A DNA stretch of 64,000 bases. Source: Eledone cirrhosa (taxonomy: Eukaryota). The stretch lies in assembly GCA_964016885.1 (NCBI GenBank), contig OZ024742.1:145018001-145082000 (forward strand). The letters are read 5' to 3'. The notes under the pieces are model-generated. The model saw only the letters and a list, made by a program, of their open reading frames with translations, ran no database searches and was not told the origin of the DNA. Shown here piece after piece: positions 8,221 to 52,373 of this stretch (position 1 is the first letter of the stretch; every line of letters starts with the position of its first letter). A program made the position numbers and the translations under genes.

Positions 8221-8225
<5 letters not shown>

Positions 8226-8501
8226 ATATTTGGGGAGGGTCATATTTGCGTAATATTGCCAGAATTAATAACAGAACACACTCACTGTTTGGTTGGTTTT
8301 CGCTTCTCGCTGTCTTTTATATATATATATCTGCGATCTAACTTACTCGGTCCTATATATATAAAAGACAGCGAGAAGCGAAAACCAACCAAACAGTGAG
8401 TGTGTTCTGTTATTAATTCTGGCAATATTACGCAAATATGACCCTCCCCAAATATAACAATATCTGTTTCGACACACGATTTCATATAAAAAACCTCGCA
8501 A

Positions 8502-8505
<4 letters not shown>
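8221..8505. mobile_element. Palindromic 3'-end fragment of PLE family 2 (same as 38785-39997)
   Basis: 8221-8325 is the reverse complement of ~8355-8460; carries the terminal motif atgaccctccccaaatataacaatatc..tttcgacacacgatttca shared with the Neptune-like 3' end; flanked by (TA)n. Confidence 0.85.
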
Positions 8506-8543: not shown

Positions 8544-8546
<3 letters not shown>

Positions 8547-9537
8547 TAGAACACTGGACGGTAATATCAGTAGTGGTAGAGCACTCAGTCCATGGGACGA
8601 GTTAGGTAGAAGTGGTTACACAACAGTTAGTTCACCATACCGAGAACAATTGTTTCACCTTAGCAGATCTTCAGCTCGTAATGGGCATGGTTATACGGAA
8701 CAGGAAGGACAACCGTACGAACGCGCATGCGCAGAAACCGGTCACTTCACACAGGCAATGCTAAAATGCGTGCGAGAGGTGTACGGGAGATAACTGCGAA
8801 AGTCCGAAAAGTGTTGAAGGGGACAAGCTTCGAGCTTACGGCAAGAGCACCCTGGTGAGGTGTTGCTCCTAGGGCTACTGGTGATGTGGGCCTTCATGTT
8901 CTTAGCGCAGGAGTATCCTAGTTTAACTTTGTGTCGGTTAAAGATGGAGCGGTATTTATGACCTATGGGAAAGTGTCTATCTAAGAGGGCTAGAAATTTG
9001 TTTAACGTTGACTGAGAAGGGAGGAGAGAACCAGATAGTTTGTCTATTGTTACGCTTTCTTTTCTTATTGCTGTTGTTGATAGTGGGAGAGTAAGTGATA
9101 GGTTGTGAGAAGCCGCTGTTAGCTAACGCCGTGTTATAGTAGGGTGCCGCCCTGTCAAAGATAGCCTTATTAGAGGAGAGGTTTGAGATTCTAGTACTGA
9201 TATTATTTACGAAGTTTCTAAAAACAGTGGGAGGGTGGCATGAGTCTTTGTGAATGTAATTAACTTTCTCGTTTAGCTTATGGAAGGGTCTGTGGGTGTG
9301 TGTCCGAAGGGCTAAATTAATGTCTAAGAAATCTACGCTAGAGAGGTTGGTAGCTACTGTTATCCTAAGTCCTAACTCGTTGAAGGTAGAAGCTAAGTCT
9401 TTTTTAAACCGGTCGAGGTCGTGACCACTTTTATGGCTCGATAATGTCAATCCATCATCACGGTATATTCCCGTGTGGAAGTCCGGGAATCTAACACGTA
9501 ATATGTCTAAAATAAATAGGCCAACCAAGTCACATAC
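8544..9537 (-). mobile_element. Internally deleted Penelope-like element of the YRDD type (Nematis-like): RT core/thumb, start of the Cys linker, and 3' UTR with an HHR
   Basis: ORF 8977-9528: GIYRDDGL, VDFLDINL, YIHKDSCHPP, IWFSPPFS. After a frameshift it continues LLDRHFP..SIFNRHKVKLGYSC..CSCRKLEACPL; no GIY-YIG domain follows. HHR at 8641-8678. The clade assignment is from memory of the motifs. Confidence 0.78.
8641..8678 (-). ncRNA. Minimal type I hammerhead ribozyme
   Basis: Reverse complement reads CGAG-CTGAAGA-TCTGCTAAGGT-GAAA-CAATTG-TT-CTCG: helix I CGAG/CTCG, palindromic helix III ACAATTGT, weak helix II. Confidence 0.72.
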
Positions 9538-10616
9538 GAGAGAGAGTAAGGGGATGTGAGAGAGAAAGATAGAGAGTAAGGGGATGAGAGAGAAAGACGA
9601 TGAAAGAGAGAGAGAGAGGGAAAGTAACCAGCGTTCTTAAATGTTTATTTATTTATTATTTTTACATACTTTTTAACTCTCCCGCTTCCTTAACGTTATT
9701 TATCTTTTCTTTATTTTTTGGTTCTCTATTTCGTAGAGAGAGTGGGGATGTGAGAGAGAAATAAAAAGAGAGAGAGTAATGGGATGAGAGAGGGGGGGGG
9801 GAAGTGGCTAGCGTTCATTAACTTTTATTTATTTATTAGTTTTACACACTTCTTAACTCTCCCATAGTTATTTATCTTTTATTTATTTTTTGTTTGCTAT
9901 TGTGTAAGGATGAGAGAGAGAAAGAAAGAGAGATGAGAAAGAGAAAGGGAGTGAGACGGATGGGGAGATGAGAGAGAGAAAAAAAAGTAAAGAGGCAGGA
10001 GAGAGGGAGGGTGATTGGAGGGACTCTTTAAATAACGTGTGTCCGCGTTTATATATATATTTACACACACATATGTGTGTGTTATGGGGGGGGGGGGGGG
10101 CTTCTTTAGCAGACGATATATGTTACCATCAAAGCTTATTTTCTACATATGTCTAAAGAAATCACAGATGCTTTTATAGAAGTTGTATCATCATCATCAT
10201 TATCATCATTTTACGTCCGCTTTTCCCTGCTTGCAAGGGTATATATATGTATGTATTTAAGAGACAAAAAAAAACGGTATTTTTAAAAGATATTATTTGA
10301 ATATATTATTTTCCGCTGTTATTTGAATTAACACAGAACATATTTTTTTTTGTAGTGTTTGTCGTTTTTTTGGATACAATCTGAAATCCCAATATTTTCT
10401 ACATATGTCTAAAATTAATTACACCTAATATACATTCATATAAAGAGATCATTTAAAACAACTTTACTGAGTGAACAGTACATTCTATAATTGATTCTAT
10501 TTCGGAAAGAGTGTGGTGTGTAATAATTGTTTCTATGTTTGGCACAAGGCCAGCAATTATTCCAGTGCATTACTGGTACTTTATTTTATCGTGTGATGTG
10601 TAATAATATCACTTCA

Positions 10617-16042: not shown

Positions 16043-16070
16043 ATATATATATATATATGTATATATATAT

Positions 16071-17930
16071 TGGAATAAATGCTCTGAAATAGCGATATAT
16101 ATGTGAATATAGACATAGAATATTCGAAAATATTCTGTATGTTTATAATAAACATTTTGAAGACCTAATCGCTATAGAATAGAATACGTCACGTATTACA
16201 ATTAGATTCTCGATAAAAGCAAGGGAAGTAATCTACGCGTTTCATTCTCGTTAGAAATCATCAGGACTACATATCCAGTGCTTTTATCGAGAATGACACA
16301 GCTAGAGACTTATAGAATACTTAGCTGTGTACAGGAACTGATTTGAAAGAGCGGTTGCCGGTCCGGCAGAAATTAGAAATTGGAATAAATGCTCTGAAAT
16401 AGCGATATATATGTGAATATAGACATAGAATATTCGAAAATATTCTGTATGTTTATAATAAACATTTTGAAGACCTAATCGCTATAGAATAGAATACGTC
16501 ACGTATTACAATTAGATTCTCGATAAAAGCAAGGGAAGTAATCTACGCGTTTCATTCTCGTTAGAAATCATCAGGACTACATATCCAGTGCTTTTATCGA
16601 GAATGACACAGCTAGAGACTTATAGAATACTTAGCTGTGTACAGGAACTGGTTTGAAAGAGCGGTTGCCGGTCCGGCAGAAATTAGAAATTGGAATAAAT
16701 GCTCTGAAATAGCGATATATATGTGAATATAGACATAGAATATTCGAAAATATTCTGTATGTTTATAATAAACATTTTGAAGACCTAATCGCTATAGAAT
16801 AGAATACGTCACGTATTACAATTAGATTCTCGATAAAAGCAAGGGAAGTAATCTACGCGTTTCATTCTCGTTAGAAATCATCAGGACTACATATCCAGTG
16901 CTTTTATCGAGAATGACACAGCTAGAGACTTATAGAATACTTAGCTGTGTACAGGAACTGGTTTGAAAGAGCGGTTGCCGGTCCGGCAGAAATTAGAAAT
17001 TGGAATAAATGCTCTGAAATAGCGATATATATGTGAATATAGACATAGAATATTCGAAAATATTCTGTATGTTTATAATAAACATTTTGAAGACCTAATC
17101 GCTATAGAATAGAATACGTCACGTATTACAATTAGATTCTCGATAAAAGCAAGGGAAGTAATCTACGCGTTTCATTCTCGTTAGAAATCATCAGGACTAC
17201 ATATCCAGTGCTTTTATCGAGAATGACACAGCTAGAGACTTATAGAATACTTAGCTGTGTACAGGAACTGGTTTGAAAGAGCGGTTGCCGGTCCGGCAGA
17301 AATTAGAAATTGGAATAAATGCTCTGAAATAGCGATATATATGTGAATATAGACATAGAATATTCGAAAATATTCTGTATGTTTATAATAAACATTTTGA
17401 AGACCTAATCGCTATAGAATAGAATACGTCACGTATTACAATTAGATTCTCGATAAAAGCAAGGGAAGTAATCTACGCGTTTCATTCTCGTTAGAAATCA
17501 TCAGGACTACATATCCAGTGCTTTTATCGAGAATGACACAGCTAGAGACTTATAGAATACTTAGCTGTGTACAGGAACTGGTTTGAAAGAGCGGTTGCCG
17601 GTCCGGCAGAAATTAGAAATTGGAATAAATGCTCTGAAATAGCGATATATATGTGAATATAGACATAGAATATTCGAAAATATTCTGTATGTTTATAATA
17701 AACATTTTGAAGACCTAATCGCTATAGAATAGAATACGTCACGTATTACAATTAGATTCTCGATAAAAGCAAGGGAAGTAATCTACGCGTTTCATTCTCG
17801 TTAGAAATCATCAGGACTACATATCCAGTGCTTTTATCGAGAATGACACAGCTAGAGACTTATAGAATACTTAGCTGTGTACAGGAACTGGTTTGAAAGA
17901 GCGGTTGCCGGTCCGGCAGAAATTAGAAAT
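16071..17930 (-). repeat. Left arm: six exact 310-bp tandem units, each with an HHR on the minus strand (retrozyme-like array)
   Basis: tggaataaatgctctg starts at 16071, 16381, 16691, 17001, 17311 and 17621; HHRs at 16228-16270 + n*310. Confidence 0.96.
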
Positions 17931-19886
17931 TGTAATACGTGACGTATTCTATTCTATAGCGATTAGGTCTTCAAAATGTTTATTATAAACATACAGAATA
18001 TTTTCGAATATTCTATGTCTATATTCACATATATATCGCTATTTCAGAGCATTTATTCCAATTTCTAATTTCTGCCGGACCGGCAACCGCTCTTTCAAAC
18101 CAGTTCCTGTACACAGCTAAGTATTCTATAAGTCTCTAGCTGTGTCATTCTCGATAAAAGCACTGGATATGTAGTCCTGATGATTTCTAACGAGAATGAA
18201 ACGCGTAGATTACTTCCCTTGCTTTTATCGAGAATCTAATTGTAATACGTGACGTATTCTATTCTATAGCGATTAGGTCTTCAAAATGTTTATTATAAAC
18301 ATACAGAATATTTTCGAATATTCTATGTCTATATTCACATATATATCGCTATTTCAGAGCATTTATTCCAATTTCTAATTTCTGCCGGACCGGCAACCGC
18401 TCTTTCAAACCAGTTCCTGTACACAGCTAAGTATTCTATAAGTCTCTAGCTGTGTCATTCTCGATAAAAGCACTGGATATGTAGTCCTGATGATTTCTAA
18501 CGAGAATGAAACGCGTAGATTACTTCCCTTGCTTTTATCGAGAATCTAATTGTAATACGTGACGTATTCTATTCTATAGCGATTAGGTCTTCAAAATGTT
18601 TATTATAAACATACAGAATATTTTCGAATATTCTATGTCTATATTCACATATATATCGCTATTTCAGAGCATTTATTCCAATTTCTAATTTCTGCCGGAC
18701 CGGCAACCGCTCTTTCAAACCAGTTCCTGTACACAGCTAAGTATTCTATAAGTCTCTAGCTGTGTCATTCTCGATAAAAGCACTGGATATGTAGTCCTGA
18801 TGATTTCTAACGAGAATGAAACGCGTAGATTACTTCCCTTGCTTTTATCGAGAATCTAATTGTAATACGTGACGTATTCTATTCTATAGCGATTAGGTCT
18901 TCAAAATGTTTATTATAAACATACAGAATATTTTCGAATATTCTATGTCTATATTCACATATATATCGCTATTTCAGAGCATTTATTCCAATTTCTAATT
19001 TCTGCCGGACCGGCAACCGCTCTTTCAAACCAGTTCCTGTACACAGCTAAGTATTCTATAAGTCTCTAGCTGTGTCATTCTCGATAAAAGCACTGGATAT
19101 GTAGTCCTGATGATTTCTAACGAGAATGAAACGCGTAGATTACTTCCCTTGCTTTTATCGAGAATCTAATTGTAATACGTGACGTATTCTATTCTATAGC
19201 GATTAGGTCTTCAAAATGTTTATTATAAACATACAGAATATTTTCGAATATTCTATGTCTATATTCACATATATATCGCTATTTCAGAGCATTTATTCCA
19301 ATTTCTAATTTCTGCCGGACCGGCAACCGCTCTTTCAAACCAGTTCCTGTACACAGCTAAGTATTCTATAAGTCTCTAGCTGTGTCATTCTCGATAAAAG
19401 CACTGGATATGTAGTCCTGATGATTTCTAACGAGAATGAAACGCGTAGATTACTTCCCTTGCTTTTATCGAGAATCTAATTGTAATACGTGACGTATTCT
19501 ATTCTATAGCGATTAGGTCTTCAAAATGTTTATTATAAACATACAGAATATTTTCGAATATTCTATGTCTATATTCACATATATATCGCTATTTCAGAGC
19601 ATTTATTCCAATTTCTAATTTCTGCCGGACCGGCAACCGCTCTTTCAAACCAGTTCCTGTACACAGCTAAGTATTCTATAAGTCTCTAGCTGTGTCATTC
19701 TCGATAAAAGCACTGGATATGTAGTCCTGATGATTTCTAACGAGAATGAAACGCGTAGATTACTTCCCTTGCTTTTATCGAGAATCTAATTGTAATACGT
19801 GACGTATTCTATTCTATAGCGATTAGGTCTTCAAAATGTTTATTATAAACATACAGAATATTTTCGAATATTCTATGTCTATATTC
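17931..19886 (+). repeat. Right arm: ~6.3 tandem 310-bp units, inverted relative to the left arm, HHR on the plus strand
   Basis: tgtaatacgtgacg starts at 17931, 18241, 18551, 18861, 19171, 19481 and 19791; HHRs at 18171-18213 + n*310; junction microhomology AATTG at 17928-17932. Confidence 0.96.
18171..18213 (+). ncRNA. Type I hammerhead ribozyme (representative of 12 copies in 16071-19886)
   Basis: GTAGTC-CTGATGA-T-TTCT-AACG-AGAA-T-GAAA-CGCG-TA-GATTAC: intact CUGAUGA/GAAA core, GUA site, palindromic helix III ACGCGT. Helix I is extended past an internal loop by ATTCTCGATAAAAGCA/TGCTTTTATCGAGAAT. Confidence 0.92.
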
Positions 19887-19900: not shown

Positions 19901-20672
19901 ATTTCGTTTCTGAATTTGTTTAGCAAGATTCTTTATCTGAAAACGTGTGTTGAAACCGATATTGTTATAGTTTGGGAGGGTCATGTTGCCAATAAGAAAC
20001 ACACGCACCAGTTGCTTTCACTCCAATTTATTATAAATTAAATTAAATTATAATTAAATTATAAATTATATAATTAAATTATAAATTAAATTATAATTTG
20101 ATGTTAAATTAGAACATAAGGGCAAATTAGAGAACATAGAAATAAAAATAAAATCTACACACAGAAAAGACGCAATGTTTAGACAAATCACAGAGGCAAT
20201 AAACATAAATGAACTCCAACCAAAATTAAATAGAAAACATGAATGGAATAGCAACATCACAACTTACAATTAAGGACAAAATGAAACACACGCACACATA
20301 GAACAAACAACCAACTAGTAACATTTAAATAAACAAATAAATAAACAAATAAAAACACACACAGACACCCGGATGTAACACATGCGCAAACTAAACACAC
20401 AACACACACACAAAAACAAGATGGCGTATGACAGAACAAAGGAGAGGCACAAAACAAAGAAAAGAATCCCCAGTCACTGAAGAGGTCACAGAATGTGTGA
20501 CGAAAGAACTTTGACAATATATGAACAACCGTCCGGTTGTGGAACCAACCAACCAACCGGAAATTTATTAATTTTTTTTTAATTTATAATTTAATTTATA
20601 ATAAATTGGAGAGAAAGCAACTGGTGCGTGTGTTTCGTATTGGCAACATGACCCTCCCAAAGTCTAACAATA
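19901..20672 (+). mobile_element. 5'-truncated Neptune-like PLE copy (end of GIY-YIG + 3' UTR + HHR) preceded by an inverted copy of its own 3' end
   Basis: 20110-20272 encodes ...[27 protein letters not shown], matching the end of the 41486 ORF; 19901-20035 is the reverse complement of the 3' terminus (cf. 45105-45233); HHR at 20472-20516. Confidence 0.9.
20472..20516 (+). ncRNA. Type I hammerhead ribozyme in PLE 3' UTR
   Basis: GTCA-CTGAAGA-G-GTCACA-GAATG-TGTGAC-GAAA-GAAC-TT-TGAC. Confidence 0.8.
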
Positions 20673-20787
20673 TATATATATGTGTGTGTGTGTATGTATA
20701 CATGTATATATATATGTGTGTGTGTGTATATATATATATGTGTGTGTGTGTTTGTGTGTGTGTGTGTCTATCTATCTATATATATAG

Positions 20788-22562: not shown

Positions 22563-22593
<31 letters not shown>

Positions 22594-23274: not shown

Positions 23275-23530
23275 TTTATTTTGTCCTACACCATCTTGTT
23301 TTTGTGTCAAACACAAAACCAAGATAGTGTAGGACAAAACAAAGGAGAGATACACAAAATAAAAACCGACTCACTAAGGAGGTCACAGAATGTGTGACGA
23401 AAGAGCTTTGACAATATATAAACAACCTTCCGGTTATCGAACCAACCAACCGGAAATTTATAATAAATTGAAGTGAAAACCAACAGGTGCGTGTGTTTTT
23501 ATTGGCAACATGACCCTCCAAAAGTATAAA
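23275..23530 (+). mobile_element. Diverged Neptune-like 3' UTR fragment with a short 5' inversion and a degenerate HHR
   Basis: 23278-23340 is a hairpin; CTAAGGA-G-GTCACA..TGTGAC-GAAA-GAGCTT at ~23370-23412; ends in atgaccctccaaaagtataa followed by TA. Confidence 0.75.
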
Positions 23531-23555
23531 CCATGTATATATATATATGTGTGTG

Positions 23556-33017: not shown

Positions 33018-33455
33018 GAGGCGGTGGATGGGCAGTATCGATAGAGCGTCGGATACCATGCTTCATGACGTCTTTTTTGTTCTGAGTTTAAATCCTACCG
33101 AAGTTAGCTGTGCATTTCCTGCTTACGGGAGGTCGATAAAATAAAGTACCAGTAACGCACTAGGGTAGATTTAATCGACTTTCCCCACCTGCAAAATTGT
33201 TGATCTTGTGCCTAAGTCAGAAACTATTAAGGGCAGTGGATTGGTAGTATCCTTACAACGTCGGAAACCATGCTTTGCAGTATATAGTTACGTCCCTTTG
33301 CGTTCTGAGATCAAATTCCGACGAGGTTAGCTTTGCCTTTCATCCATACGGAGTCGATAAAATAAAGTACCTATAACGGATTGGGGTCGATTTAATCGAC
33401 TTTCCCCTCCCTAAAACTTGTTGGCCTTGTGCCTACATCCGAAATCATTATTTAT
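33018..33455 (+). mobile_element. Two tandem family A SINEs
   Basis: ggcggtgga.tggcagtatc...gtcgataaaataaagtacc...ccttgtgcc occurs at ~33018 and ~33231. Confidence 0.8.

Positions 33456-34854: not shown

Positions 34855-34856
<2 letters not shown>
33997..34856. mobile_element. HHR-bearing non-coding element (~321-bp unit): ~1.3 units on the minus strand + ~1.3 units on the plus strand, in (TA)n
   Basis: tatttcgtatctccaaag at 34000 and 34321; orientation flips at ~34428; HHRs at 34102-34145 (-) and 34664-34707 (+). Confidence 0.9.
34102..34145 (-). ncRNA. Type I hammerhead ribozyme
   Basis: ACCGTC-CTGACGA-T-GGC-CAGTTAA-GCC-T-GAAA-TGCA-TA-GACGGT; palindromic helix III ATGCAT. The plus-strand twin (34664-34707) has TAAA in place of GAAA. 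Confidence 0.88.
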
Positions 34857-34889: not shown

Positions 34890-35157
34890 TATTGTCTATG
34901 CTAGACTCTGCTTTGATTTGGAAACTTTTCATTCCACCTAATTTGCAGGGATAAGGATGTAAATGTTCCCAATCCTATCTCACCCAAATGTAAGGTAGCG
35001 TTTGTGAGATCGATTAAGAACCGCTATTAGTCTCCTGAAGACTGTCTATGTTGCAATCTACTTATTTAAGATAGTAGATGTGTGATTTGGCTGTTGCCTT
35101 TAGCAAGTTGAGCTGGTCGTCTTATTTCACAACTGCCATTATTTGTGAGTGAGCCAA

Positions 35158-35376
35158 GGGCGGTGGATTGGCAGAATCAACGGAGCGTCGGACAAAATGC
35201 AATGCAACATTTACTTACGGTCCTTTACGTTCTGAGTTCAAATCCCAGCGGGGTCAACTTTGCTTTTCATCCTTTCAGGGTCGATAAAATAAAGTACCAG
35301 TCACGTACTGGGTCGATATAATCACTTTCCCCTTCCCCAGAGATTGTTGGTCTTATGTCTAAATTAGAAATCATTA
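35158..35376 (+). mobile_element. Family A SINE
   Basis: Head gggcggtggattggcagaatc, B box GAGTTCAAATCC, gtcgataaaataaagtaccag. Confidence 0.8.
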
Positions 35377-36153: not shown

Positions 36154-36202
<49 letters not shown>

Positions 36203-36203
<1 letters not shown>

Positions 36204-37010
36204 AACGGAAAAAATGAAACGAAATTTCATTTCCCACTCTTAGTACGGCTGTTACTTAAATATAAGTATGTACACGTACATACATATATGTATACAGACG
36301 TACAGTAGTATGTATATATATATATACATACATACACACATATATATATATGTACGTATGGATTCACAGAACATTTATTATAATGCTCGGTGTGTTTGTA
36401 AACAAACATCCCGTATTAAGCCGTAGTGTCCAGCAACCATCGTTGCTCGTTTGTTCAACACTGACATATAATAAATGTTCGGTGAATCCATACGTACTTT
36501 AAAAATGTGTGCATGTATGTATATATATACACATACTACTGTACGTCTGTATACATGTATGTATGTATGTATGTGTACATACTTATATTTAAGTAACAGC
36601 CGTACTAAGAGTGGGAAATGAAATTTCGTTTCATTTTTTCCGTTTATCGTTTTCGGTGCACCCGGCCGATTAACCCACCCGATATGCAAATTGGGCTTCT
36701 CAGCTGTTAATATGCATAAGGTAAGTATATACGTTCAACAATCTGGCAGGAAGGAATACGATGCTGACGATAGCTAATAAGCTTGAAACTAGTACAGCGT
36801 TCCTTTGTCAGTGTTGAACAAACGAGCAACGATGGTTGCTGGACACTACGGCTTAATACGGGATGTTTGTTTACAAACACACCGAGCATTATAATAAATG
36901 TTCGGTGAATCCATACGTACATATATATATATATGTGTGCATGTATGTATATATATATACATACTACTGTACGTCTGTATACATATATGTATGTACGTGT
37001 ACATACTTAT
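36203..37010. mobile_element. HHR-bearing non-coding element (~423-bp unit): inverted partial arm + ~1.3 direct units, in (TA)n
   Basis: 36203-36466 is antisense to the unit; ataaatgttcggtgaatcc at 36471 and 36894; HHR at 36758-36800; a related copy lies at 59245-59680. Confidence 0.87.
36758..36800 (+). ncRNA. Type I hammerhead ribozyme
   Basis: ACGATG-CTGACGA-T-AGCT-AATA-AGCT-T-GAAA-CTAG-TA-CAGCGT; palindromic helix III ACTAGT; one mismatch in helix I. Confidence 0.85.
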
Positions 37011-37058
37011 ATATATATATATATAAATGAAGAACTTAAATGCAACAACACAGCTCGC

Positions 37059-38040: not shown

Positions 38041-38784
38041 GACCGTCAATTCCCCAACCTTGAACATAAACGTGGAGGAGAGGTAGATAGCTAAGTACCA
38101 GGGCTTGACCGACACCTTCCTTTTTCCTGCCGGTCACCGTCAAGACCTTAGGAGAGTTCGATCTCCGATCTGTCGTTTCCCTCTGCAAAACTGGGAGGAA
38201 TGCATCTCGCCAGAGAAAGGAGAGCCGTGTGGTAGAGTACATCGCGTGTTGTTGGCCGTTCTCCGCGTCAAGCTTTTTTCCATTTGTCCTCGTGACGCAG
38301 CTGAGATACACCACCTCGTCTGCAATGTTGTGTTTGCCGTTCCTTCCTACCACATTTCATTTACTTTCGCTATTTAATATTTTTTACTCTTTCGTTTTTG
38401 CTTCTTTTGTTAATGCAAGCGTTGATGAATTTTTTAATGAACGGAAATGAATTTTATCGTTTGTCATTAAAAAAAAAAATTATCAAAAGATTTAAAAATT
38501 TGCAGAAAGAAAAAAAGTAACACATATATATGTGTATGTATGTGTGCGCGCACGCGTGTGTGTGTGTCGGGTTCAGTTGGGCTAACCGCAGTTAGTAAGG
38601 TACTCAATACATTAGTAGAGTGTAAACAGGACTAGAACTGCTGCATTCAAAAGATATCAACAGGAAAGCTCTGATGATTTATATATATATGTATATATAT
38701 ATATATATATACATATATATAGATATATATATATATACATATATGTATATAAATATATATATATACATATATACATATATATAA

Positions 38785-39990
38785 CGGCGATGAATTAGTT
38801 TTGCGAGGTTTTTGATATGAAATCGTGTGTCGAAACAAATATTGTTATACTTGGGGAGGGTCATATTTGTGTAATATTGCCAGAATTAATAACAGAACAC
38901 ACTCACTGTTTGGTTGGTTTTCGCTTTTCGCTTCTGTGTCTTTTATATCGGTAATCTAATTTATTCGGTCCTCAATGTTGCCATTGACTGACCAACGGTC
39001 AAAAATAATACAGATACAATATAGACACAAATACATATATATAGTTTATCAACGTTCTTTCGCTGCACATCTGCAACATCGTCAGTGGTGCTATTGTTTC
39101 CTCCCGTTACATTGTATTTTCTACGCTATCTTTATTTAGTCTGTTTATATCTTTATTTATTTGTTTATTTTATTTTGTCTTCTTTGCGCATGCGTTTGCG
39201 TGTGTGTATAGTGTTTTGTTTGATGTGTGTTCGTGATTGGGTGACTGTGTATTGGTTAATGTATTCTATCTTTACTAGTGTGTGTTTACATGTGTTTGTT
39301 GTTATTGTGCTTGTGTATGTATTTATTTATTTATTTATCTATTTATTTATTTATACTTCTCTTAGGTCAGTGTTGTTTGTTTGGGTGTTGTTGTTATTCC
39401 ATTCATTGTTGTTGTTATTCCATTCAATGAATGGAATAACAACAACACCCAAACAAACAACACTGACCTAAGAGAAGTATAAATAAATAAATAAATAAAT
39501 AGATAAATAAATAAATACATACACAAGCACAATAACAACAAACACATATAAACACACACTAGTAAAGATAGAATACATTAACCAATACACAGTCACCCAA
39601 TCACGAACACACATCAAACAAAACACTATACACACACGCAAACGCATGCGCAAAGAAGACAAAATAAAATAAACAAATAAATAAAGATATAAACAGACTA
39701 AATAATGATAGCGTAGAAAATACAATGTAACGGGAGGAAACAATAGCACCACTGACGATGTTGCAGATGTGCAACGAAAGAACTTTGATAAACTATATAT
39801 ATGTGTTTGTGTCTATATTGTATCTGTATTATTTTTGACCGTCGGTCAGTCAATGGCAACATTGAGGACCGAATATATTAGGTTACCGATATAAAAGACA
39901 CAGAAGCGAAAAGCGAAAACCAACCAAACAGTGAGTGTGTTCTGTTATTAATTCTGGCAATATTACACAAATATGACCCTCCCCAAGTAT

Positions 39991-39997
<7 letters not shown>
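38785..39997. mobile_element. ~1.2-kb palindrome of the 3' end of PLE family 2 (ORF tail + UTR + HHR), centre at ~39427
   Basis: Arms ~38838-39427 and 39427-39997 are near-perfect reverse complements. The plus arm starts with EWNNNNTQTNNTDL* (cf. [10 protein letters not shown]). HHR-like motifs at 39047-39090 (-) and 39747-39790 (+). Confidence 0.9.
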
Positions 39998-40038
<41 letters not shown>

Positions 40039-40180
40039 TTGGTGCTCTGAAATAGAATGTGTATATAGCGTATTTTGCAATACACTGTATGCTTAATTAA
40101 AATCATTTTGAAGACCTTACGCTATTGTTTTAAAGTAGTGACAGTGTCACTTACTTCTTTTTTCAACAAACAAAGGGAGA

Positions 40181-40228
40181 TAAGCTGACAGATCTCCGTT
40201 TCATACTGTTGGTATTCCTCAGAGCTTA
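40181..40228 (-). ncRNA. Type I hammerhead ribozyme
   Basis: TAAGCT-CTGAGGA-ATAC-CAACA-GTAT-GAAA-CGG-AGAT-CTG-TC-AGCTTA; GUC site. Confidence 0.87.
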
Positions 40229-40695
40229 TCACTCCCCTTGTTTGTTGAAAATTATGAATGTTGGATTCTTATAGAATTCCACTAATAATCAGGAACTGAT
40301 TATACAGAGCGGTTGCCGGTCCAGCAAAAATTTAAAATTAGAATTGGTGCTCTGAAATAGCGATATATGTATGAATGTATATATATAGTGTATTTTTCAA
40401 TACACTGTATGCTTAATTAAAAGCATTTTGAAGACCTTACGTTATTGTTTTAAAGTAGTGACTATGTCATTTACTTCTTTTTTCAACAAACAAAATGCTT
40501 TTAATTAAGCATACAGTGTATTGCAAAATACATTATATATACATTCATATATACATATATCGCTATTTCAGAGCACCAATTCTAATTTTAAATTTTTGCT
40601 GGACCGGCAACCGCTCTGTATAATCAGTTCCTGATTATTACTGGAATTCTATAAGAATCCAACATTCATAATTTTCAACAAACAAGGGGAGTGCT

Positions 40696-40741
40696 AAGCT
40701 CTGAAGAATACCAACAGTATGAAACAGAGATCTGTCAGCTT
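40696..40741 (+). ncRNA. Type I hammerhead ribozyme
   Basis: AAGCT-CTGAAGA-ATAC-CAACA-GTAT-GAAA-CAG-AGAT-CTG-TC-AGCTT; GUC site; helix III can close intramolecularly. Confidence 0.88.
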
Positions 40742-41203: not shown

Positions 41204-41248
<45 letters not shown>

Positions 41249-41485
41249 TATATATATATACATAAATATATATATACATAAATATATATATACATAAATA
41301 TATACATATATATATATATATATAAATATATATATACATAAATATATATATATATACATAAATATATATATACATAAATATATATATACATAAATATATA
41401 TATACATAAATATATATATATATATATATATTTCAACAATGAAAATACCAACATTTATGGAAACACGGAAATAGATAATAATGAA

Positions 41486-44400
41486 ATGTCTGTGTTACGT
41501 CTGCCACCCAAATTTGCGACATTCAAGAAGGTAAATATGATTAGTTGTCTGTCAGAAATAGAAAAATCATTTACGAAACTACGCTGGAGCATCAAAAACA
41601 AAAACAAAAGCAACAATATACGCACACACATATACAACACACATCCCAACAACAACAGACACACAGACACAAACAACAATAACAACAACAATAGCAACAT
41701 ACCCAGATACAACACCAACAATAGCAACATACCCAGATACAACAGACACGCAGACACAAACAACAATAACAACACACACGGAGACAACAATAACAACAAC
41801 ACACACATCAACAACAACAACAACAGCAACATACCCAGATACAACAACAACAGACACGCAAACACAAACAACAATAACAACACACACAACAACGATAACA
41901 CACACACACACGGAGACAACAACACACATCAACAACAACACACATCAACAACAACAACACACACACATTCAATGCCTCTCACCACCACTACAATCTTAAC
42001 AAACACACAGACACAGAAAACAAGTAATGACAGTAGCACAGAAATCAGAGAAATAAGAGAAAGTAATAGGATTAAAAGGAGAAGGGAGACTAAGGACAAA
42101 GAGAATAACCAAGACGAACACACAGACACACAAAATAGGGTAGATAACAACATTGAGCCAGTGGAAAGAGACAGGAGTAATTATGAGAGACATAGAAACA
42201 ACCATGAAGCTGAGGCTGCTGCTGTTGGTGGAAATAGAAACAACACAACTAACAATAGCACTAGTACACATAAAGCAGCAGCCTGGAACTCTCCGTTTTA
42301 TAACCCCTCCGATAAATCATTCGACCTACGACGAGTCCACGCCACGACTTTGCCATTTAACAAACGCACGCAGTTGCCGTCGCAGGTCGATGAACAAACA
42401 GAAGCACAATTTAGTATAGCTAAATCCGAACTTAGAAATATTATAGAACAGTATAGCCAGAAGCATAATAGAATAGAGGCCCAGCAACTGGGAGAAGAAT
42501 CTGCAAATGGCTTGCGTAAGCTCATGCAGCGCTCACGTAATGGAGAGATAGCATGCTTTCCAACAGACAAGTCTGGCAGAATGTCGGTTGACAGCCTGCC
42601 AAACTACATCCAGGCAATGCAACCCCACATCACTAACACAAGAGAGGTAACACCACAGGAGCATGAGGATAGAGAAAAAACCCTCAATGCCCATATGGTG
42701 ATGTGGACAAATATAATGCAGCCCAACAAAAGGACTGCCAACAACTTCCAGGCCTGGAACAATGACGTGCCGGCGTTGTATGGGCTTCGAAAAGACCATA
42801 AAACGGGCTGGGACCCTGTCGCGGGATCACCAACACGGCCAGTCTGTGGGGCTAACATTGCTAGTAACTACAGACTGTCCTACTTCCTCTCCCTGATCAT
42901 ACGCCCCATCATTGAGATGTCCCCAGATGTGTGTGACAGCACGGAGGACCTCCTCAGCAGAATCGGCGCGGGTAACCGATCTGGGGACCTAACAAACTGC
43001 ATAATAGGCAGTATGGATGTTGTGTCCCTGTATCCATCTATTGACGTGGATTTTGCTGTGGAGAAATGCGTCGAAATGATCAGCGAGAGCAAGGTTGAGT
43101 TCCGTGGGATTGATACCAGTGAGCTGGGACTTCTACTTAAGCTTACCCATAGTAATAGTTACCTAGACACTTATGACCTTAGCAACCTGTGCCCTACAAG
43201 ACCAGCAAGAGGCAGACCACCTACCATTACCTCAATGGCCAAGAAAACCCACACAGATAGATGGAACGGGTGGACCAGAGCCATACGGACACCCGAAAAC
43301 CACGATGAACTGAAGAAAATGATTGCACATGCGGTAGGGGCCAGCATAAAATTAAAATTAACCCTTAAGGAACATATGTTCAAATTTAATGGTAAAACAT
43401 ATGCCCAAGAGGAAGGAGCAGCCATTGGTGTTAGCATTGCAGGCGACATAGCTAACCTGTTCATGGTATGGTGGGACAGTAGACTTAAACAAAAACTTAA
43501 TGAACAATTAGAAGACAGCTTAACCCTGATAATGTACTCCCGCTACGTAGATGATATAAACATCGTAGTTAAGACACCCCCACTAAAGAACAGTCAGGAA
43601 CCAGAGAAAAACACAATGGAAAGCATCCAGCAAATAGCAAACTCCATCCACCAGAGCATTAGAGTTACTATAGACTACCCAAGTAGACACCCCAACCATC
43701 GATTACCTGTACTAGACACAGAGCTCTGGTTAGATACTATTAACAACCAAAAACAAATCCTCCATTCCCATTATGCCAAACCCATGACTTCCAAACATCT
43801 GATCCACCGAAACTCGGCCATTTCGGACCATACCAAAATCAACATACTGATTGCGGATTTGGTACGGGTGATGAGAAATGTGTCCCGCATGTGCAACCCC
43901 GAAGAACTAGAGAGACACATACAACACTTCATCCACCGTATGCAGTTCTCTGGCTACAATCAGAGAGATAGAATCAGAGTGTATAAAGGAGCCAGAACCA
44001 AATGGGAAAAAATGGTAAATAATGACATAAATGGGACCTGCCCCTTGTATAGGAGCAAATTTTGGAATAGAATAGAAAGAACTAAGAACAAGGCCAATAT
44101 AATAAACTCATGGTATGATAGCAATAAATACCAGAGTGTAATGTTCATCAATACAACCCCTAGAGGCGAACTAGCCTACAAATTTAGAAGGGCCCTAAAG
44201 AAACATAATCTCAATATTAAGATAGTAGAAAGACCTGGTACCTCCGTAAAAACACTTATTAGCAAGACATACCCGTTCCAAAGACCCTCATGTATAGATA
44301 AGAAATGTATAACCTGTAAAATAAGCCCCCATATCAACTGTAAAACTAGAAATGTAGTATATAGCATAAGATGTACTGAAGGACAATGTAGAAACAAAAA

Positions 44401-44674
44401 TATAGTGTACATAGGTGAGACAGCTCGTAGTATAGGGGAACGAATAAATGAACACTGGCGAGACCTCCAAGATAGTAAAGAATCATCTGTGCTCTACCAA
44501 CATGCTAAGATAGAACACAGGGGTAAATTAGAGAGCATAGAAATAAAAATAGAATCCACACACAAGAAAGACGCAATGTTTAGGCAAATTACAGAGGCAG
44601 TAAGCATAAAAGAATTAAAACCAAAATTAAATAGAAAATATGAGTGGAACAGCAACATCACAACTTACAATTAA
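41486..44674 (+). CDS. PLE polyprotein: Asn/Thr/His-rich low-complexity N-terminus, RT, Cys-rich linker, C-terminal GIY-YIG endonuclease (1062 aa; frame open upstream to the microsatellite)
   Basis: [103 protein letters not shown]. Confidence 0.93.
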
Positions 44675-44973
44675 GGACAAAATGAAAACACACACACACA
44701 CATAGAACAAACAACTTACAATTGAAAACACACACAAAATGAAAACACACACAAGACAAAATGAAAACACACACACACATAGAACAAACAACCAACCAAC
44801 AATAAATAAATAAATAAACAAACAAATATAAATAGAAAAATAGAAAAATGAACACAAACACACACAGACACCCGGATGTGGCGCATGCGCAAACTGAGCA
44901 CGCAACCCACACACAAACAAAATGGCGTAGGATAGAAGAAAGGAAAGGCACAGAAACGAAGAAAGAAATCCCC

Positions 44974-45018
44974 AGTCACTGAAGAGGTCACAGAGTGTGT
45001 GACGAAAGAACTATGACT
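44974..45018 (+). ncRNA. Type I hammerhead ribozyme in the PLE 3' UTR/pLTR
   Basis: AGTCA-CTGAAGA-G-GTCACA-GAGTG-TGTGAC-GAAA-GAAC-TA-TGACT. Confidence 0.85.
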
Positions 45019-45233
45019 ATATATATATAAACAACTATCTGGTTGTGGAACCAACCAACCAACCAGAAATTTATAAATTTGTAAATTTATAAATATATAT
45101 TAAATTAAATTGAAGTGAAAGCAACTGGTGCGTGTGTTTCTTATTGGCAACATGACCCTCCCAAAGTATAACAATATCGGTTTCAACACACGATTTCAGA
45201 TAAAGAATCTTGCTAAACAAATTCAGAAACGAA

Positions 45234-47340
<2,107 letters not shown>

Positions 47341-47341: not shown

Positions 47342-47503
47342 TGTTGTAATATTGTTGTAATATTGCCAGAAATAATAACAGAACACACTCACTGTTTGGT
47401 TTGGGTTGGTTTTCGCTTCTGTATATTTTATATCTCCATAGTTAATTTATTTGGCAATCAACGTTTATAATTGATTGACCAGCGGTTAAAAATACAGATA
47501 TAA

Positions 47504-47540
<37 letters not shown>

Positions 47541-47640
47541 GTCTATCAAAGTTCTTTCGTTGCACACCTGCAACATCATCAGTGATACTATTATGTTTCC
47601 TCCTATTGTATTGTATGTCTACGCCATTTTTATTTTTATT
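47342..47640 (-). mobile_element. PLE family 2 3' UTR fragment with HHR
   Basis: Homologous to 38870-39150; reverse complement of 47544-47587 reads TATCA-CTGATGA-T-GTTGCA-GGTG-TGCAAC-GAAA-GAAC-TT-TGATA. Confidence 0.82.
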
Positions 47641-47959
47641 TATTTATTAATTTGTTCTTGTGGCCCTAGGGCCACAGGTTGGGCATCCCTGATTTGAAGA
47701 ATTCCTATGTTGTTGCTTTTTTCACACATGGAGTAAATTATCCAAACTGTCCTTTCTTCTTCACGGCATTGGAATGTGTGTAATTTGAGGAAGATTTAGC
47801 CTCTATTTCTAACAAGTTGGACAATCACGTAAAGGGATTGTAGAATTTATAATGGCTAAAACAAGATCTCTTACCGTGTTATTAATGTACACAAGTTGCC
47901 TCCCATGTTTCAATTACGTTATTTTAGTATTTATTATTTAAATAATTTATTATTGAATA

Positions 47960-48152
47960 AATAATTGTTTCTACTTTTGGCACAAAGCCAGCAATTATTT
48001 CAGTGTATTACTGGTACTTTATTTTATCGACCCCGCAAGGATGAAAGGCAAAGTTAACCTCGGCGGGATATGAACTCAGACCATAAAGGGCCGTAACTCT
48101 TTGCTGCAAAGCATGGCATCCAACCCTCTACCAATACTGCCAATCCACCGAC
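47960..48152 (-). mobile_element. Family A SINE
   Basis: Reverse complement of the 6702-6898 family. Confidence 0.8.
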
Positions 48153-48699
48153 CCTTAAATAATGAAAAATTATTATTTATGTCTGATACCTTGACATAAA
48201 TTTTGTTTTGGGTAGAAGCAAGAAGTGAAAATTGAAAATATTTATGCCCTTCAACAGAAGGAAAATATCATAAAAGAACAGAAAAGAATTAAACATGGAA
48301 ATTGAAATCGAAGCTCGAAGCCTGTAGGTCTGGAATCTACCATGGGAAAGTTCAAGTATATGATAGATAACGAATTATAGATTATACGAACTGCTAATAT
48401 GTGTATATGGGCATAAGTCTATCTTTCGATGTGTATGTATGTATGCAATAAATATAACTATATTTATATGGGGTAGGGGGCAAGAGAAGATAACTTGAAT
48501 AGATTAGTTACTAGTTCAAACAACACCAGTGATCAAAGATTCAAACCTTGTGTCTCTACACAAAACTGCTTGATATACATCTAAAACAAAATGATAAAGT
48601 GATATAAATTCATTGTTAAAATTAAGTCATAGTAACAAACAGCAATATTTTGTTCTAATGAGAGGGAAATTACCTTGCGATAGACTAGCGTTCTACATC

Positions 48700-50229: not shown

Positions 50230-52373
50230 GAGGGGACTCTTAAGTATGGTAAAACAACCTCTGTAATGTTGGTGGCATGAACAATGCACCCGGTCCCTGC
50301 TGTAAAGTGGTTGGTAGTAAGAAGAGCATCTACCCAGTAAAACCCACCAAAAATTATAAAAAGCATGACCAATATGACTTCCACGAGTTGCAAACACAGG
50401 GTTAACATTAGTCATGTTAGTGCTGTGCACAGTAGTGGGGGGGGGGGGGGCTAGTATAGCCATGTGCGAGAACCCCTTCACCATCATCAAGAAATTGCCC
50501 AACCAGTTTTGCTTTCAAGTACATAGAAGATCTAACCAAGGAAGTAACAACAACTATCAAGGTACAAATCTCAGGACTGCCACCCTCAATGTAAATCAGG
50601 TGAAATTGTGGAACTGTTAGAGAGAAGAGGAGTAGATGTATGCTGTGTACAAGAAGTGAGATGGAGGCATGCCACAGCAAGACTAATCACGGGCAGACAA
50701 CTTAGGCATAAACTCTATTGAATAGGAAATGACAATGGGGTAGGAGGGCTAGGCATCCTACTAGCTGAGAAATGGATAGATAAGGTGATAGAGGTAGTTA
50801 GAGTAAGTGACAGAATCATCAAGCTTAGATTAACTGTAGGAAATAGACTGGTGACAATCACATCTACCTATGCTCTGCAAGTAGGACTGGGTAAAGAATA
50901 AAAGGACAGGTTCTATGAGGAACTTTTACAGACAACTTCAGGTATTGATGAAAGAGACCTCATCATCCTGACAGGCGACTTTAATGGACATGTGGGACAG
51001 TACCAGGATGGATTCAGCAAAGTTCATGGTGGCTATGGTTATGGCTCAAGGAATGAAGAGGGGCTGAGACTCCTGCAAGTTTGTGATGCAAATGAACTAA
51101 CCATCGGCAACACAAATTTCTGGAAATCAACCAACCACCTGATTTCATATCAATCTGGTGAACACACAAGCTAAATTGATTACTTACTTGTTAGACAACA
51201 AGACAAACAGACTAGTAAATACTAAGGTCTTCCCTGGGGAAGAATGCACTGCCCTGCACAAGTTAGTTATTAGTGACAGTAAAATAAACAAATGACAGAA
51301 CAAGACATACAGGAAAATATAGAGATGGGGGGTGTCAAAGCTAAAGGTCCTCTCAGTTAAATACAGGTTTAGAAAGGCGCTATGTGATGTACTTAATGAG
51401 AGGGATGACGAGCTAGATACATATAACATAGAGGACAATTGGAAATTTTTACATGACAACCTTTTGCGAACTACTGACAAGACTTGTTGTTGGAATAAAG
51501 TGCCACCCAGACAGAGGGTGACTTGGTGGTGGAACAGCACAGTAGATTAAAGCCAAGAGAGAGGCATTGAAAGACTGGAAAAATGAGGTAGCAGAGACCA
51601 GTACCAAGTAGCTAAGAAAGAAGCTAGCCGACATGTGTACACAGCTCAGAGAAAGACTGAAGAAAATAAATTTCCCAATGTCTTGAGACGTGGGGATCAG
51701 AGGTGTGAAATGTTCCATATTGCAAGGCAGTGTGTTAGTGTGAATCAAGATGTTATTGGGGAAAATGTATTAGAAATTATGCTGGTGCACTTAGCACCAC
51801 TGGTGCTCAAAAGAAAGAGGCCTGGAAATATTACTATGAGATTGATGAATGTAGAGAATGAATGGGAAGAAAAGAAACTACCCCCAATTTACCCAAAGGA
51901 AGGACCAGCTATTGAAGTTGATAGTTTTAGAGTCAAAGATGTAATCAAGAAGATGAAGAACGGTAAAGCTGCAGGACTGTCAGAGATAGTTGCTAAGATG
52001 CTAAAATCATCAGGAGAGGTAGGAGTCAAACTAGTAACCTGCATAATCAATCAAGTAATACATGATGGAGGCATGCCCAATGACTGGTGCAGCAGTACAA
52101 TAATAATTGCTACAAGGGCAAAGGCGATGCTCTAGAAAGGAGCAACAACAGAGGAATAAAACTAATGGACCAAGTTGTGAAAGTGACTGAAAGAGTTATA
52201 GTGTAGCTAATTAGGGAAAGAGTCAAAATAGATGAGATGCAGTTTGGTTTCATGCCTAGGAAAAGTACTACAGATGCCTTCTTAGTGAGGCAAATACAAA
52301 AGAAGTTCCTAGCCAAAAATAAGCCACTATATTTCGTCTAAACCCATGCTAGCGTGGAAGATAGATGTTAAAC

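What the first reader, a model, noticed from the sequence alone, without database searches (positions are those of the whole stretch)
41431..45233. Uninterrupted Neptune-like PLE ORF as the candidate autonomous driver
Seen: this is the only intact long ORF among many decayed elements (RT YVDD + CxxxxCxxC linker + GIY-YIG). It has its own HHR, sits in (TA)n, and has truncated relatives at 19901, 23275, 8221, 38785 and 47342. The reading frame stays open upstream into the microsatellite ([19 protein letters not shown]), so this copy is probably 5'-truncated. Inference: this family or a close relative supplies RT and endonuclease in trans to the non-coding HHR units.
Basis: partly seen in the sequence, partly recalled or inferred. 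Interest (0 to 1): 0.7.

Follow-up and report, generated by a model that had tools for sequence, protein, structure and literature searches.

The report
Truncated Penelope retrotransposon, unclassified telomerase-like lineage
This is a front-truncated, likely recent copy of a Penelope-type jumping gene that probably cannot move anything itself and shows no sequence link to the nearby ribozyme repeats, but it appears to belong to an unnamed lineage whose copying enzyme carries an extra insert as long as the one in telomerase.

Summary
The open frame is real (41432-44674): a telomerase-like RT, a Cys linker and a GIY-YIG nuclease with all catalytic residues, followed by a minimal hammerhead, inserted in (TA)n. 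It is not an autonomous copy. About 170-210 N-terminal codons and the 5' pLTR are missing, the likely true start codon sits in its own 3' end (45152), and it carries a private 2-residue insertion. It does not fit Neptune: the linker is short (Nematis-like), the motifs are DKS/KDHK, and RT motifs A and B' lie 130 residues apart (126-131 in 113 of 113 measurable homologs), against 57-60 in canonical PLEs and 107-149 in TERTs. I found no description of such a C-terminal-nuclease lineage, but could not tree it against named clades. The 310-nt hammerhead arrays do look PLE-mobilised ((TA)n ends, fold-back arms, 35-nt tail), an idea already in print for retrozymes. Nothing ties them to this family: there is no sequence similarity and the hammerhead type differs, and a (TA)n-targeting Hydra-clade remnant in the same window is at least as good a candidate. 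Three of the five listed relatives are a sister family.

The parts
41207..41431 (.). Compound (TA)n microsatellite, target and 5' flank; gives the spurious first 18 codons of the open frame
41432..44674 (+). 5'-truncated PLE ORF (1080 codons plus stop); Met at 41486 is an internal residue of the full-length protein
41594..41971 (+). In-frame Asn/His/Thr-rich low-complexity insert (40% Asn) after the RW motif; the RW-to-PFN span is 254 aa against 30-70 in 29 of 35 measurable homologs
42563..43990 (+). RT core and thumb: DKS motif 42566, motif A Asp 43016, motif B' Gln 43406, YVDD 43544; TERT is the best structural match
43016..43408 (+). Motif A to B' interval of 130 aa, about 70 aa longer than in canonical PLEs; lies at the position of the telomerase insertion-in-fingers
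   Evidence: lengths; published alignment; fold
43349..43360 (+). Private 6-nt tandem duplication adding two residues to a helix whose length is fixed in 120 of 120 homologs
44291..44341 (+). Cys linker C-x4-C-x2-C-x7-C (short, Nematis-type spacing)
44360..44632 (+). GIY-YIG endonuclease with CCHH motif and catalytic Y, Y, R, H, E, N
44974..45018 (+). Minimal type I hammerhead in the 3' pLTR: 5-bp stem I, unpaired base then 6-bp stem II, 2-bp stem III; predicted cut after 45013
45152..45233 (+). Likely true ORF start (ATG plus 27 codons) at the 3' terminus; short end at about 45177, tail end at 45233 (56 nt apart)
45234..46261 (.). Compound (TA)n microsatellite, 3' flank
19903..20673 (.). Same family, older fold-back copy: inverted arm with tail (19903-20067, -) and direct arm with the nuclease C-terminus, hammerhead and short end (20101-20673, +)
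23275..23533 (+). Same family, short 3' fragment with a 5' hairpin and a mutated hammerhead core
38784..39996 (.). Sister family B, fold-back 3' fragment (arms 1.6% apart); shares only the hammerhead type and the ORF-start tail with the element
8222..8504 (.). Sister family B, short fold-back of the 3' terminus
47342..47656 (-). Sister family B, diverged 3' fragment with hammerhead (core 47582)
16070..19886 (.). 310-nt hammerhead (retrozyme-type) array: left arm 6.0 units on -, right arm 6.3 units on +, 12 hammerheads, ends 35 nt apart in unit register
8544..9540 (-). Decayed Hydra-clade PLE remnant (RT C-terminal half, CxCx5C linker, nuclease deleted, own hammerhead at 8674): rival source of trans-acting enzyme

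Best explanation
The locus is a 5'-truncated copy of an endonuclease-bearing Penelope-like retrotransposon sitting in a (TA)n tract, likely young, likely unable to act as a source, and likely of a lineage outside the named clades. Mechanism, inferred from the anatomy and from work on Poseidon of Anolis: the full-length protein would bind its RNA near the start of the ORF, which is carried in the terminal repeat. It would nick AT-rich DNA with the GIY-YIG domain and start reverse transcription internally at one of two sites 56 nt apart (after about codon 8 or codon 27), which gives the short and tailed ends seen. Here synthesis began at the tail site and stopped about 170-210 codons short of the start; other copies folded back to give inverted arms. 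Shown: frame, motifs, truncation, two end classes, fold-back copies, (TA)n flanks. Inferred: nicking, priming, hammerhead cleavage (probably as a dimer or with protein help), inactivity of this copy. The 310-nt arrays are non-LTR retrozymes that were likely inserted by PLE-type machinery as more-than-unit cDNA; which PLE family did it is not determined by this window.
For: Frame and catalytic residues. TERT and I-TevI fold matches. 30 of 58 homologs extend 170-210 aa further upstream, and the N-termini of 41 long homologs hit nothing in the window upstream of 41453. The terminal 27 codons stay in frame between this family and sister family B with 11 of 16 changes at third positions, P=0.004, as pLTRs carry the ORF start in PAc and Pen2a_Av. 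5 short and 4 tailed ends recur among the 9 family ends translated or listed (one of the 9 lacks the ATG). A frame of this length stays stop-free in only 7% of simulations at 2% divergence. Lineage features: DKS in 80 of 84, KDHK in 95 of 120, A-to-B' 126-131 in 113 of 113, CxxC-to-C spacer 5-11 in 92 of 92 measurable homologs; A-to-B' 117-141 in 60 of 61 measurable more distant representatives. Array: 1 substitution in 10 units over both arms, 3' ends pointing outward at (TA)n, 35-nt end offset.
Against: The 27-codon start is only weakly similar to homolog N-termini (phmmer E 0.04 among 41), and a profile of those N-termini did not recover it. No tree against Neptune, Nematis or Poseidon could be made, and Neptune is paraphyletic in the published tree, so the lineage could nest inside it. 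The copy could be transcribed by read-through and translated from Met 41486; expression was not testable. The right end of the array is 3 nt short of the TA tract, and one end of the 15500 element is not at a TA tract. Tandem retrozyme arrays may also grow by unequal crossover.
Confidence: 0.78

Rival explanations
1. One reading: full-length members of this family, elsewhere in the genome, supply RT and nuclease in trans to the 310-nt hammerhead units.
For: Same (TA)n target and tail-out fold-back form. Both are young. The distance from hammerhead cut to 3' end is 164 nt in both the element's short end and the array's left end. A family member (19903) lies 16 nt from the array. PLE pLTRs can mobilise cargo in trans.
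Against: No similarity between the element's 3' region and the unit: scores 28.5 against shuffle means 25-27, 17-27 of 100 shuffles as high. In Xenopus, 24 of 57 retrozyme families match known TEs, 21 of the 22 matched being PLEs, at their termini. Hammerhead type differs. The neighbour at 19903 is older (arms 6.4% apart against 0%). Adjacency in TA tracts also pairs sister family B with the 300-nt relative and with the Hydra remnant. Cut-to-end distances range 101-268 nt over 11 hammerheads, so one match at 164 is weak.
Confidence: 0.27
2. The units are driven by a different (TA)n-targeting PLE, a Hydra-clade (or Naiad) element.
For: The unit's hammerhead has a short stem II flanked by U and U, as do those at 34139, 36764, 59492 and the Hydra remnant's own at 8674, and 14 of 25 Hydra families in the published table (my count). 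Hydra and Naiad families with (TA)n preference are reported from Octopus.
Against: No similarity between the Hydra remnant's 3' end and the unit (35 of 100 shuffles as high). A Hydra N-terminal profile scored the unit no better than an unrelated frame of the element (14 of 500 shuffles each) and missed its positive control. The published Octopus Hydra family has a long stem II, not the U.U type. I did not see how common the U.U type is outside Hydra. The remnant here is decayed.
Confidence: 0.3
3. The element is an ordinary Neptune (or Nematis) member that happens to carry an insert.
For: It has the CX2-5CxxC linker and CCHH motif shared by Neptune and Nematis. Neptune is paraphyletic and diverse. 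The nuclease module resembles Nematis in spacing and C-terminal motif.
Against: The 4 Neptune references have a 25-27 residue spacer after CxxC against 7 here (my count). Neptune and Nematis references have DKG/DKR and 57-60 residues from A to B'. The insert is fixed across hundreds of homologs, not private.
Confidence: 0.15
4. This very copy is active: read-through transcription and initiation at Met 41486 give a shortened but working enzyme.
For: 1062 codons open from that Met with all catalytic residues; confident model of the RT-nuclease part (mean pLDDT 92).
Against: It lacks the pLTR that holds the promoter in characterised PLEs and an N-terminal region that in PAc is the putative nucleic-acid-binding and predicted dimer interface. 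It has a private insertion in a fixed-length helix. An open frame is expected of any young copy.
Confidence: 0.07
5. The 310-nt array grew in place by unequal crossover or slippage from one inserted unit, with no need for a currently active driver.
For: Near-identical tandem units; local amplification of retrozymes is proposed in print.
Against: Both oppositely oriented arms are multi-unit and identical, both 3' ends face TA tracts, and the left arm is 6.0 units, starting where it ends. This fits a single multi-round reverse transcription more simply.
Confidence: 0.15

Closest known systems
Nematis clade of C-terminal EN+ PLEs (as aligned in PMC8557442, Figs S1, S2, S7)
   Same: C-terminal GIY-YIG with CCHH; short C-x4-CxxC-x7-C linker; similar nuclease C-terminal motif; an insertion between the xHK and RP motifs of RT.
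   Different: Motif A to B' is 130 against about 60; DKS against DKR/DKG; KDHK against KTHK; YPS against YTN in motif A; hosts are not limited to the nematode references seen.
Neptune clade
   Same: Cys linker between RT and nuclease, CCHH, hammerhead in the pLTR, microsatellite insertion.
   Different: Spacer after CxxC is 7 against 25-27; DKS against DKG; about 70 extra residues in the fingers; nuclease C-terminus is not of the Neptune type.
Hydra clade
   Same: (TA)n target, RW motif, DK[ST], KDHK and YPS motifs, aquatic invertebrate hosts, hammerhead near the 3' end.
   Different: CCHH present, linker is not CxCx5C, canonical motif B', long insert, longer ORF (about 1000-1200 aa in full-length homologs against about 700); separated from 14 Hydra-type proteins by a long, fully supported branch.
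Naiad / Chlamys clades and TERT
   Same: An insertion between RT motifs A and B'; its length here is in the TERT range; TERT is the closest solved fold.
   Different: Nuclease is C-terminal, not N-terminal; the insert is longer than in Naiad (about 84) and its predicted fold was not shown to superpose on a TERT insertion.
Poseidon of Anolis (PAc; PMC11167929)
   Same: pLTR that carries hammerhead and ORF start; two 3' ends giving a tail; AT-rich target.
   Different: Tail is 56 nt here; the hammerhead lies about 140 nt upstream of the ATG instead of overlapping it; Cys linker and long insert present.
Adineta vaga Penelope families with Asn-rich inserts (PMC3846280)
   Same: In-frame Asn-rich (AAY) insert that keeps the ORF open.
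   Different: Here about 125-220 aa and N-terminal to the RT core; there 460-554 aa, between RT core and thumb, or 1.5 kb between RT and nuclease; different clade.
Non-LTR retrozymes (PMC7229834; bioRxiv 10.64898/2026.07.22.740005)
   Same: The 310-nt units: tandem, low GC, one type I hammerhead with palindromic short stem III per unit; PLEs already proposed as drivers.
   Different: In the passages read I saw no description of fold-back arms, (TA)n ends or a tail offset for retrozyme arrays; no matching pLTR was found in this window.

Membership tests
EN+ Penelope-like elements | Single ORF with TERT-related RT | tested here: met
   telomerases are 15 of the top 16 rows by Z (the other is I-TevI); best Z 10.8, rmsd 4.1, 357 aligned
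EN+ Penelope-like elements | GIY-YIG endonuclease in the same ORF | tested here: met
   I-TevI Z 10.1, rmsd 2.2, 90 aligned; catalytic residues; Pfam did not score it in this protein
EN+ Penelope-like elements | pLTR-type ends: 5' truncation, inverted truncated arm, optional tail | tested here: met
EN+ Penelope-like elements | Type I hammerhead in the pLTR | tested here: met
   (motif and covariation over 6 related copies); not scored by Rfam; cleavage untested
Neptune | CX2-5CxxC linker and CCHH motif | tested here: met
Neptune | Full-length linker (25-27 residues from CxxC to the next Cys in 4 of 4 references) | tested here: not met
   7 here; 5-11 in 92 of 92 measurable homologs; references counted by hand
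Neptune | DKG motif and no insertion in fingers | tested here: not met
   DKS in 80 of 84; A to B' 126-131 in 113 of 113 against 57 in 2 references
Neptune | Placement in the RT phylogeny | not testable with these tools
   No named reference sequences could be fetched; the search meant to bring in canonical PLEs returned none
Nematis | Reduced Cys linker plus CCHH | tested here: met
   spacer 7 as in the references
Nematis | Canonical RT without insertion in fingers | tested here: not met
   130 against 60
Nematis | Placement in the RT phylogeny | not testable with these tools
   as for Neptune
Hydra | CCHH absent, linker CxCx5C, divergent motif B', no insertion in fingers | tested here: not met
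   tree separates 35 lineage rows from 14 Hydra-type rows (two groups only)
Hydra | RWK and DKT motifs, (TA)n target | tested here: inconclusive
   RW and DKS are near variants; target matches
Naiad / Chlamys | N-terminal nuclease linked by a CxC domain | tested here: not met
   nuclease is C-terminal
TERT-type insertion in fingers | Position between motifs A and B' and comparable length | tested here: met
   130 here; 107-149 in 4 TERTs by hand count
TERT-type insertion in fingers | Same fold as the TERT insertion | tested here: inconclusive
   205-aa model: Z 6.3 to two TERTs (136 aligned at 6.1 A; 118 at 3.7 A), tied with RTs lacking it (DRT2 Z 6.2; LINE-1 Z 5.5, 116 aligned); no Foldseek match at E<=0.001
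Non-LTR retrozymes (310-nt units) | Tandem 170-400 nt non-coding units, each with a type I hammerhead | tested here: met
Non-LTR retrozymes (310-nt units) | Self-cleavage and accumulation as circular RNA | not testable with these tools
   needs RNA data or bench assay
Autonomous source copy | Complete ORF preceded by a pLTR | tested here: not met

The most novel reading that the evidence does not exclude
The element marks an undescribed, widespread clade of C-terminal-nuclease PLEs that combines a Nematis-type nuclease module, Hydra-like N-terminal RT motifs and a conserved telomerase-length insertion in the fingers. Published work says canonical C-terminal EN+ PLEs lack this insertion. The clade has at least 169 clusters at 50% identity (E<=1e-30), is recently active in an octopod, and its young copies and the equally young fold-back retrozyme arrays would make a direct test of which PLE drives retrozymes.
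Probability: 0.5. Interest if true: 0.62.

Novelty: new variant of a known kind. Interest (0 to 1): 0.45.

Why it matters
PLE RTs are the closest relatives of telomerase, and the insertion in the fingers has been used to discuss that link. It was reported for N-terminal-nuclease PLEs (shorter) and sporadically in Coprina, not for C-terminal-nuclease PLEs. A large invertebrate lineage with a fixed insert of TERT length would add a clade to PLE classification and a new comparison for telomerase evolution. Second, the arrays show PLE-type insertion marks (fold-back arms, offset ends, (TA)n), which supports PLE mobilisation of retrozymes at the level of mechanism and gives defined RNA ends for an in vitro assay.

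Tried and rejected
Rfam found no hammerhead family in the whole window (150 of 153 rows seen, none reached a gathering score) or in 44900-45240; the miRNA hits reflect fold-backs. Single-strand folding of 8 stretches gave no significant z-scores (-1.2 to 0.6), so fold energy is not used as evidence. Pfam gave only a sub-threshold RVT_1 match and the PDB sequence search only E 0.18 and 0.35. A profile of 41 homolog N-termini did not recover the 27-codon start. A fixed-spacer U.U hammerhead pattern matched once, with 8 of 100 shuffles as high, and is not used. The idea that the 310-nt unit ends in a Hydra ORF start was tested and dropped (no better than a control frame, positive control missed). 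A search of longer proteins meant to fetch canonical PLEs as tree references returned none of 1752 candidates. The tree is the quick version; 2 of 51 chosen rows (P0220, P0204) were dropped by the motif-based trimming, and with two groups only it cannot place the lineage. The isolated RT core gave no clear structural match for the insert; this shows neither a new fold nor a different one. The ESM Atlas returned only automatically named clusters. Source organisms of the unnamed homologs stayed unchecked, so the host range of the lineage is open. Repbase, Dfam, eukaryotic genomes and RNA data were not searchable; the viral and metagenome contig collections were not searched. PMC5850863 was not held. 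ARAGORN found no tRNA genes.
Full report
Observation. The window is microsatellite-rich animal DNA. The best protein hit is 67% identical and named from Octopus vulgaris, so an octopod source is likely (inference). The frame 41378-44674 is open for 1098 codons, the longest in the window. Its first 18 codons are microsatellite; element sequence starts at 41432 and ends at 45233, both ends against (TA)n. The protein has the RT catalytic aspartates, a Cys linker and a GIY-YIG domain, and every catalytic and metal-binding position checked (21 columns) is shared by at least 97% of the homologs that have a residue there. An AlphaFold model of the last 802 residues (mean pLDDT 92) matches telomerases best (Foldseek E 5e-8; Z 10.8, rmsd 4.1, 357 aligned) and I-TevI for the nuclease (Z 10.1, rmsd 2.2, 90 aligned). 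It is an EN+ Penelope-like element.

This copy is not a source copy. The residues just upstream of Met 41486 align to homologs, so that Met is internal. Of 120 homologs, 58 match this stretch, and 30 of those have 170-210 further residues upstream. The first 170 residues of 41 long homologs hit only 41453-41626 in the window. There is no 5' pLTR. A 6-nt duplication at 43349-43360 makes a helix 14 residues long where 120 of 120 homologs have 12. The open frame mainly shows youth: 7% of simulated copies stay stop-free at 2% substitution and 2% at 3%, indels ignored. An in-frame 40% Asn insert lies at 41594-41971, a feature known from Adineta Penelope families.

The likely start is at the 3' end. 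An ATG at 45152 opens 27 codons that run to the last base of the element. The same frame occurs at 19984 and, in a sister family, at 38864 and 8438. Between the two families 11 of 16 differences are at third positions (P=0.004), with 8 synonymous and 6 non-synonymous codons, while the sequence between hammerhead and ATG barely aligns. Against this, similarity to homolog N-termini is weak (E 0.04) and a profile missed it. Copies end either after about codon 8 or in the tail up to codon 27, 56 nt further. This is the tail that two internal RT start sites produce in Poseidon of Anolis, whose RNA needs the first 172 nt of the ORF.

Hammerhead. A minimal type I motif has its core at 44979 and predicted cut after 45013. 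The core pattern occurs 25 times in the window against 0.9 expected (12 of the 25 are array copies). Over 6 related copies 92% of cells pair, with 4 of 13 pairs changed on both sides; the copies are related, so the shuffle control overstates this. The unpaired base before a long stem II and the very short stem III fit the PLE type, which cleaves poorly alone. Rfam does not score it.

Relatives. 19903-20673 and 23275-23533 are the same family (4-13% substitutions). 8222-8504, 38784-39996 and 47342-47656 are a sister family that shares the hammerhead type and the terminal coding stretch only. No other coding piece of this lineage is in the window apart from 56 codons at 20103.

Clade. Published diagnostics and alignments (spacings counted by hand) do not fit Neptune. 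The spacer after CxxC is 7 here and 5-11 in 92 of 92 measurable homologs, against 25-27 in 4 Neptune references and about 7 in Nematis. The DKG motif is DKS in 80 of 84. Motif A to B' is 130 residues, 126-131 in 113 of 113 measurable homologs of 120 and 117-141 in 60 of 61 measurable of 145 more distant representatives (the outlier is 32). Neptune, Penelope, Poseidon, Nematis and Athena references have 57-60, a Naiad 84, Chlamys about 95-119, four TERTs 107-149. The lineage is large: 169 clusters at 50% identity score E<=1e-30. It shares RW, DK[ST], KDHK and YPS with Hydra but keeps CCHH and a canonical B', and a quick tree separates 35 lineage rows from 14 Hydra-type rows with full support. 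I could not obtain Neptune, Nematis or Poseidon sequences, so placement is untested. The insert sits where TERT has its insertion in fingers, but its model aligns no more residues to TERTs at low rmsd than to LINE-1 RT: position and length match, fold is inconclusive. PMC8557442 states that canonical PLEs lack this insertion, apart from sporadic Coprina cases. Seven literature searches showed no paper describing such a lineage; I judged most hits from listings only, and the 2006 PLE survey, the Terminon paper and Repbase were not available, so absence from print is not established.

The driver question. The array at 16070-19886 has 12 hammerheads, 1 substitution in 10 whole units compared, arms whose 3' ends point outward at (TA)n, a left arm of 6.0 units, and ends 35 nt apart in unit register. 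The idea itself is published: PLEs are named as the likely movers of metazoan retrozymes, and Xenopus retrozymes resemble pLTRs. Here no such resemblance exists: 17-27 of 100 shuffles score as high. The unit's hammerhead has a 4-bp stem II flanked by U and U, unlike the element's. That form recurs at 34139, 36764 and 59492, in 14 of 25 published Hydra families, and in a Hydra remnant at 8544-9540 of this window. That remnant is no more similar to the unit than chance, a Hydra start-profile test failed, and the published Octopus Hydra has the long stem. But distances range 101-268 nt, that neighbour is older, and TA tracts here also join other pairs of families. O. vulgaris is reported to have 31 recently active Penelope-like families, and (TA)n-targeting Naiad and Hydra families are known from Octopus. 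The driver is open.

Papers seen. PMC8557442: abstract, sections 3, 6, 11, 12, 15, passages, supplement parts 1, 2, 52-55, 57, 58 of 59 and two supplement searches. bioRxiv 10.64898/2026.07.22.740005: parts 1-3 of 5; its supplements, not seen, list retrozyme-PLE matches and may bear on the driver question. PMC11167929 and PMC4209133: parts 1-2 of 4. PMC3846280: parts 1-3 of 5. PMC7229834: passages. PMC13282606: passages and one supplement search. The hammerhead core consensus used in my scans and the labels R2/R4-like, RTE-like, Helitron-like and SINE-like are recalled, not from a call.

Verdict. A real, young, 5'-truncated PLE, not shown to be Neptune, not autonomous, and not tied to the 310-nt units. 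The point of interest is its lineage, which may be an unnamed PLE clade with a telomerase-length fingers insert. Interest 0.45; new variant of a known kind.

Noticed in passing
window 8544-9540 (-): Decayed Hydra-clade PLE: RT C-terminal half (52% to its best homolog), one frameshift near 9000, CxCx5C linker, nuclease deleted, own U.U-type hammerhead at 8674, 3' end in the TA tract shared with the 8222-8504 element.
   Followed up: yes
window 40032-40741: Sister retrozyme of about 300 nt: about 145 nt are 83% identical to the 310-nt unit and the 3' end is in similar register, but the hammerhead module is different (longer stem III). Suggests ribozyme modules are swapped between families.
   Followed up: partly
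window 34003-34856: Fold-back non-coding hammerhead element (core 34139) with two 3' ends 45-50 nt apart in TA tracts, again a PLE-type tail; its short end resembles the element's tail end over about 10 nt (1 of 100 shuffles as high).
   Followed up: partly
window 15500-16046, 36201-37039, 59215-59683: Further fold-back hammerhead elements; they share weak similarity with each other and with the 310-nt unit in their 3' regions (z 2.7-10.9), suggesting one retrozyme superfamily.
   Followed up: partly
window 17928-17937 and 16070: The array's left arm is 6.0 units and starts within 3 nt of the unit position where it ends; neither arm starts at the hammerhead cut (unit positions 31 and 162). This fits multi-round copying of a circle or of an uncut multimer.
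   Followed up: partly
window 7217-7493, 11659-11724, 21603-22593, 25825-25992, 59799-60002: Fold-back structures with no hammerhead core found by my scans; 21603-22593 encloses SINE-like repeats.
   Followed up: no
window 11959-13311 (+): Broken PIF1 helicase coding region (Pfam E 1.5e-32), probably a Helitron-like remnant.
   Followed up: no
window 27420-31109 (+) and 541-3171 (-): Two related broken non-LTR retrotransposons (RVT_1 E 5e-10 at 28713; C-terminal Cys motif and nuclease-like end, R2/R4-like by recall); 68% similar over 270 nt.
   Followed up: no
window 51587-52135 (+): Fragment that reads like the N-terminal part of an RTE-like LINE RT; no Pfam match.
   Followed up: no
protein P0002 (O. 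vulgaris, best hit): Begins with microsatellite-like residues followed by an Asn/Ser/Gly-rich stretch and lacks the nuclease C-terminus: probably another 5'-truncated copy in a TA-type tract.
   Followed up: no
protein P0298: Starts with the Cys linker and nuclease and continues into a full RT: looks like a read-through of tandem copies or a permuted member of the lineage.
   Followed up: no
window 45018-45030: TATA-like run directly after the hammerhead cut, about 125 nt upstream of the likely start codon; also present in sister family B. Possible pLTR promoter, untested.
   Followed up: no
window 6701-6906, 33020-33450, 35156-35376, 47948-48158, 57259-57598, 62293-62476: Dispersed SINE-like repeat family, 70-90% identical.
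   Followed up: no
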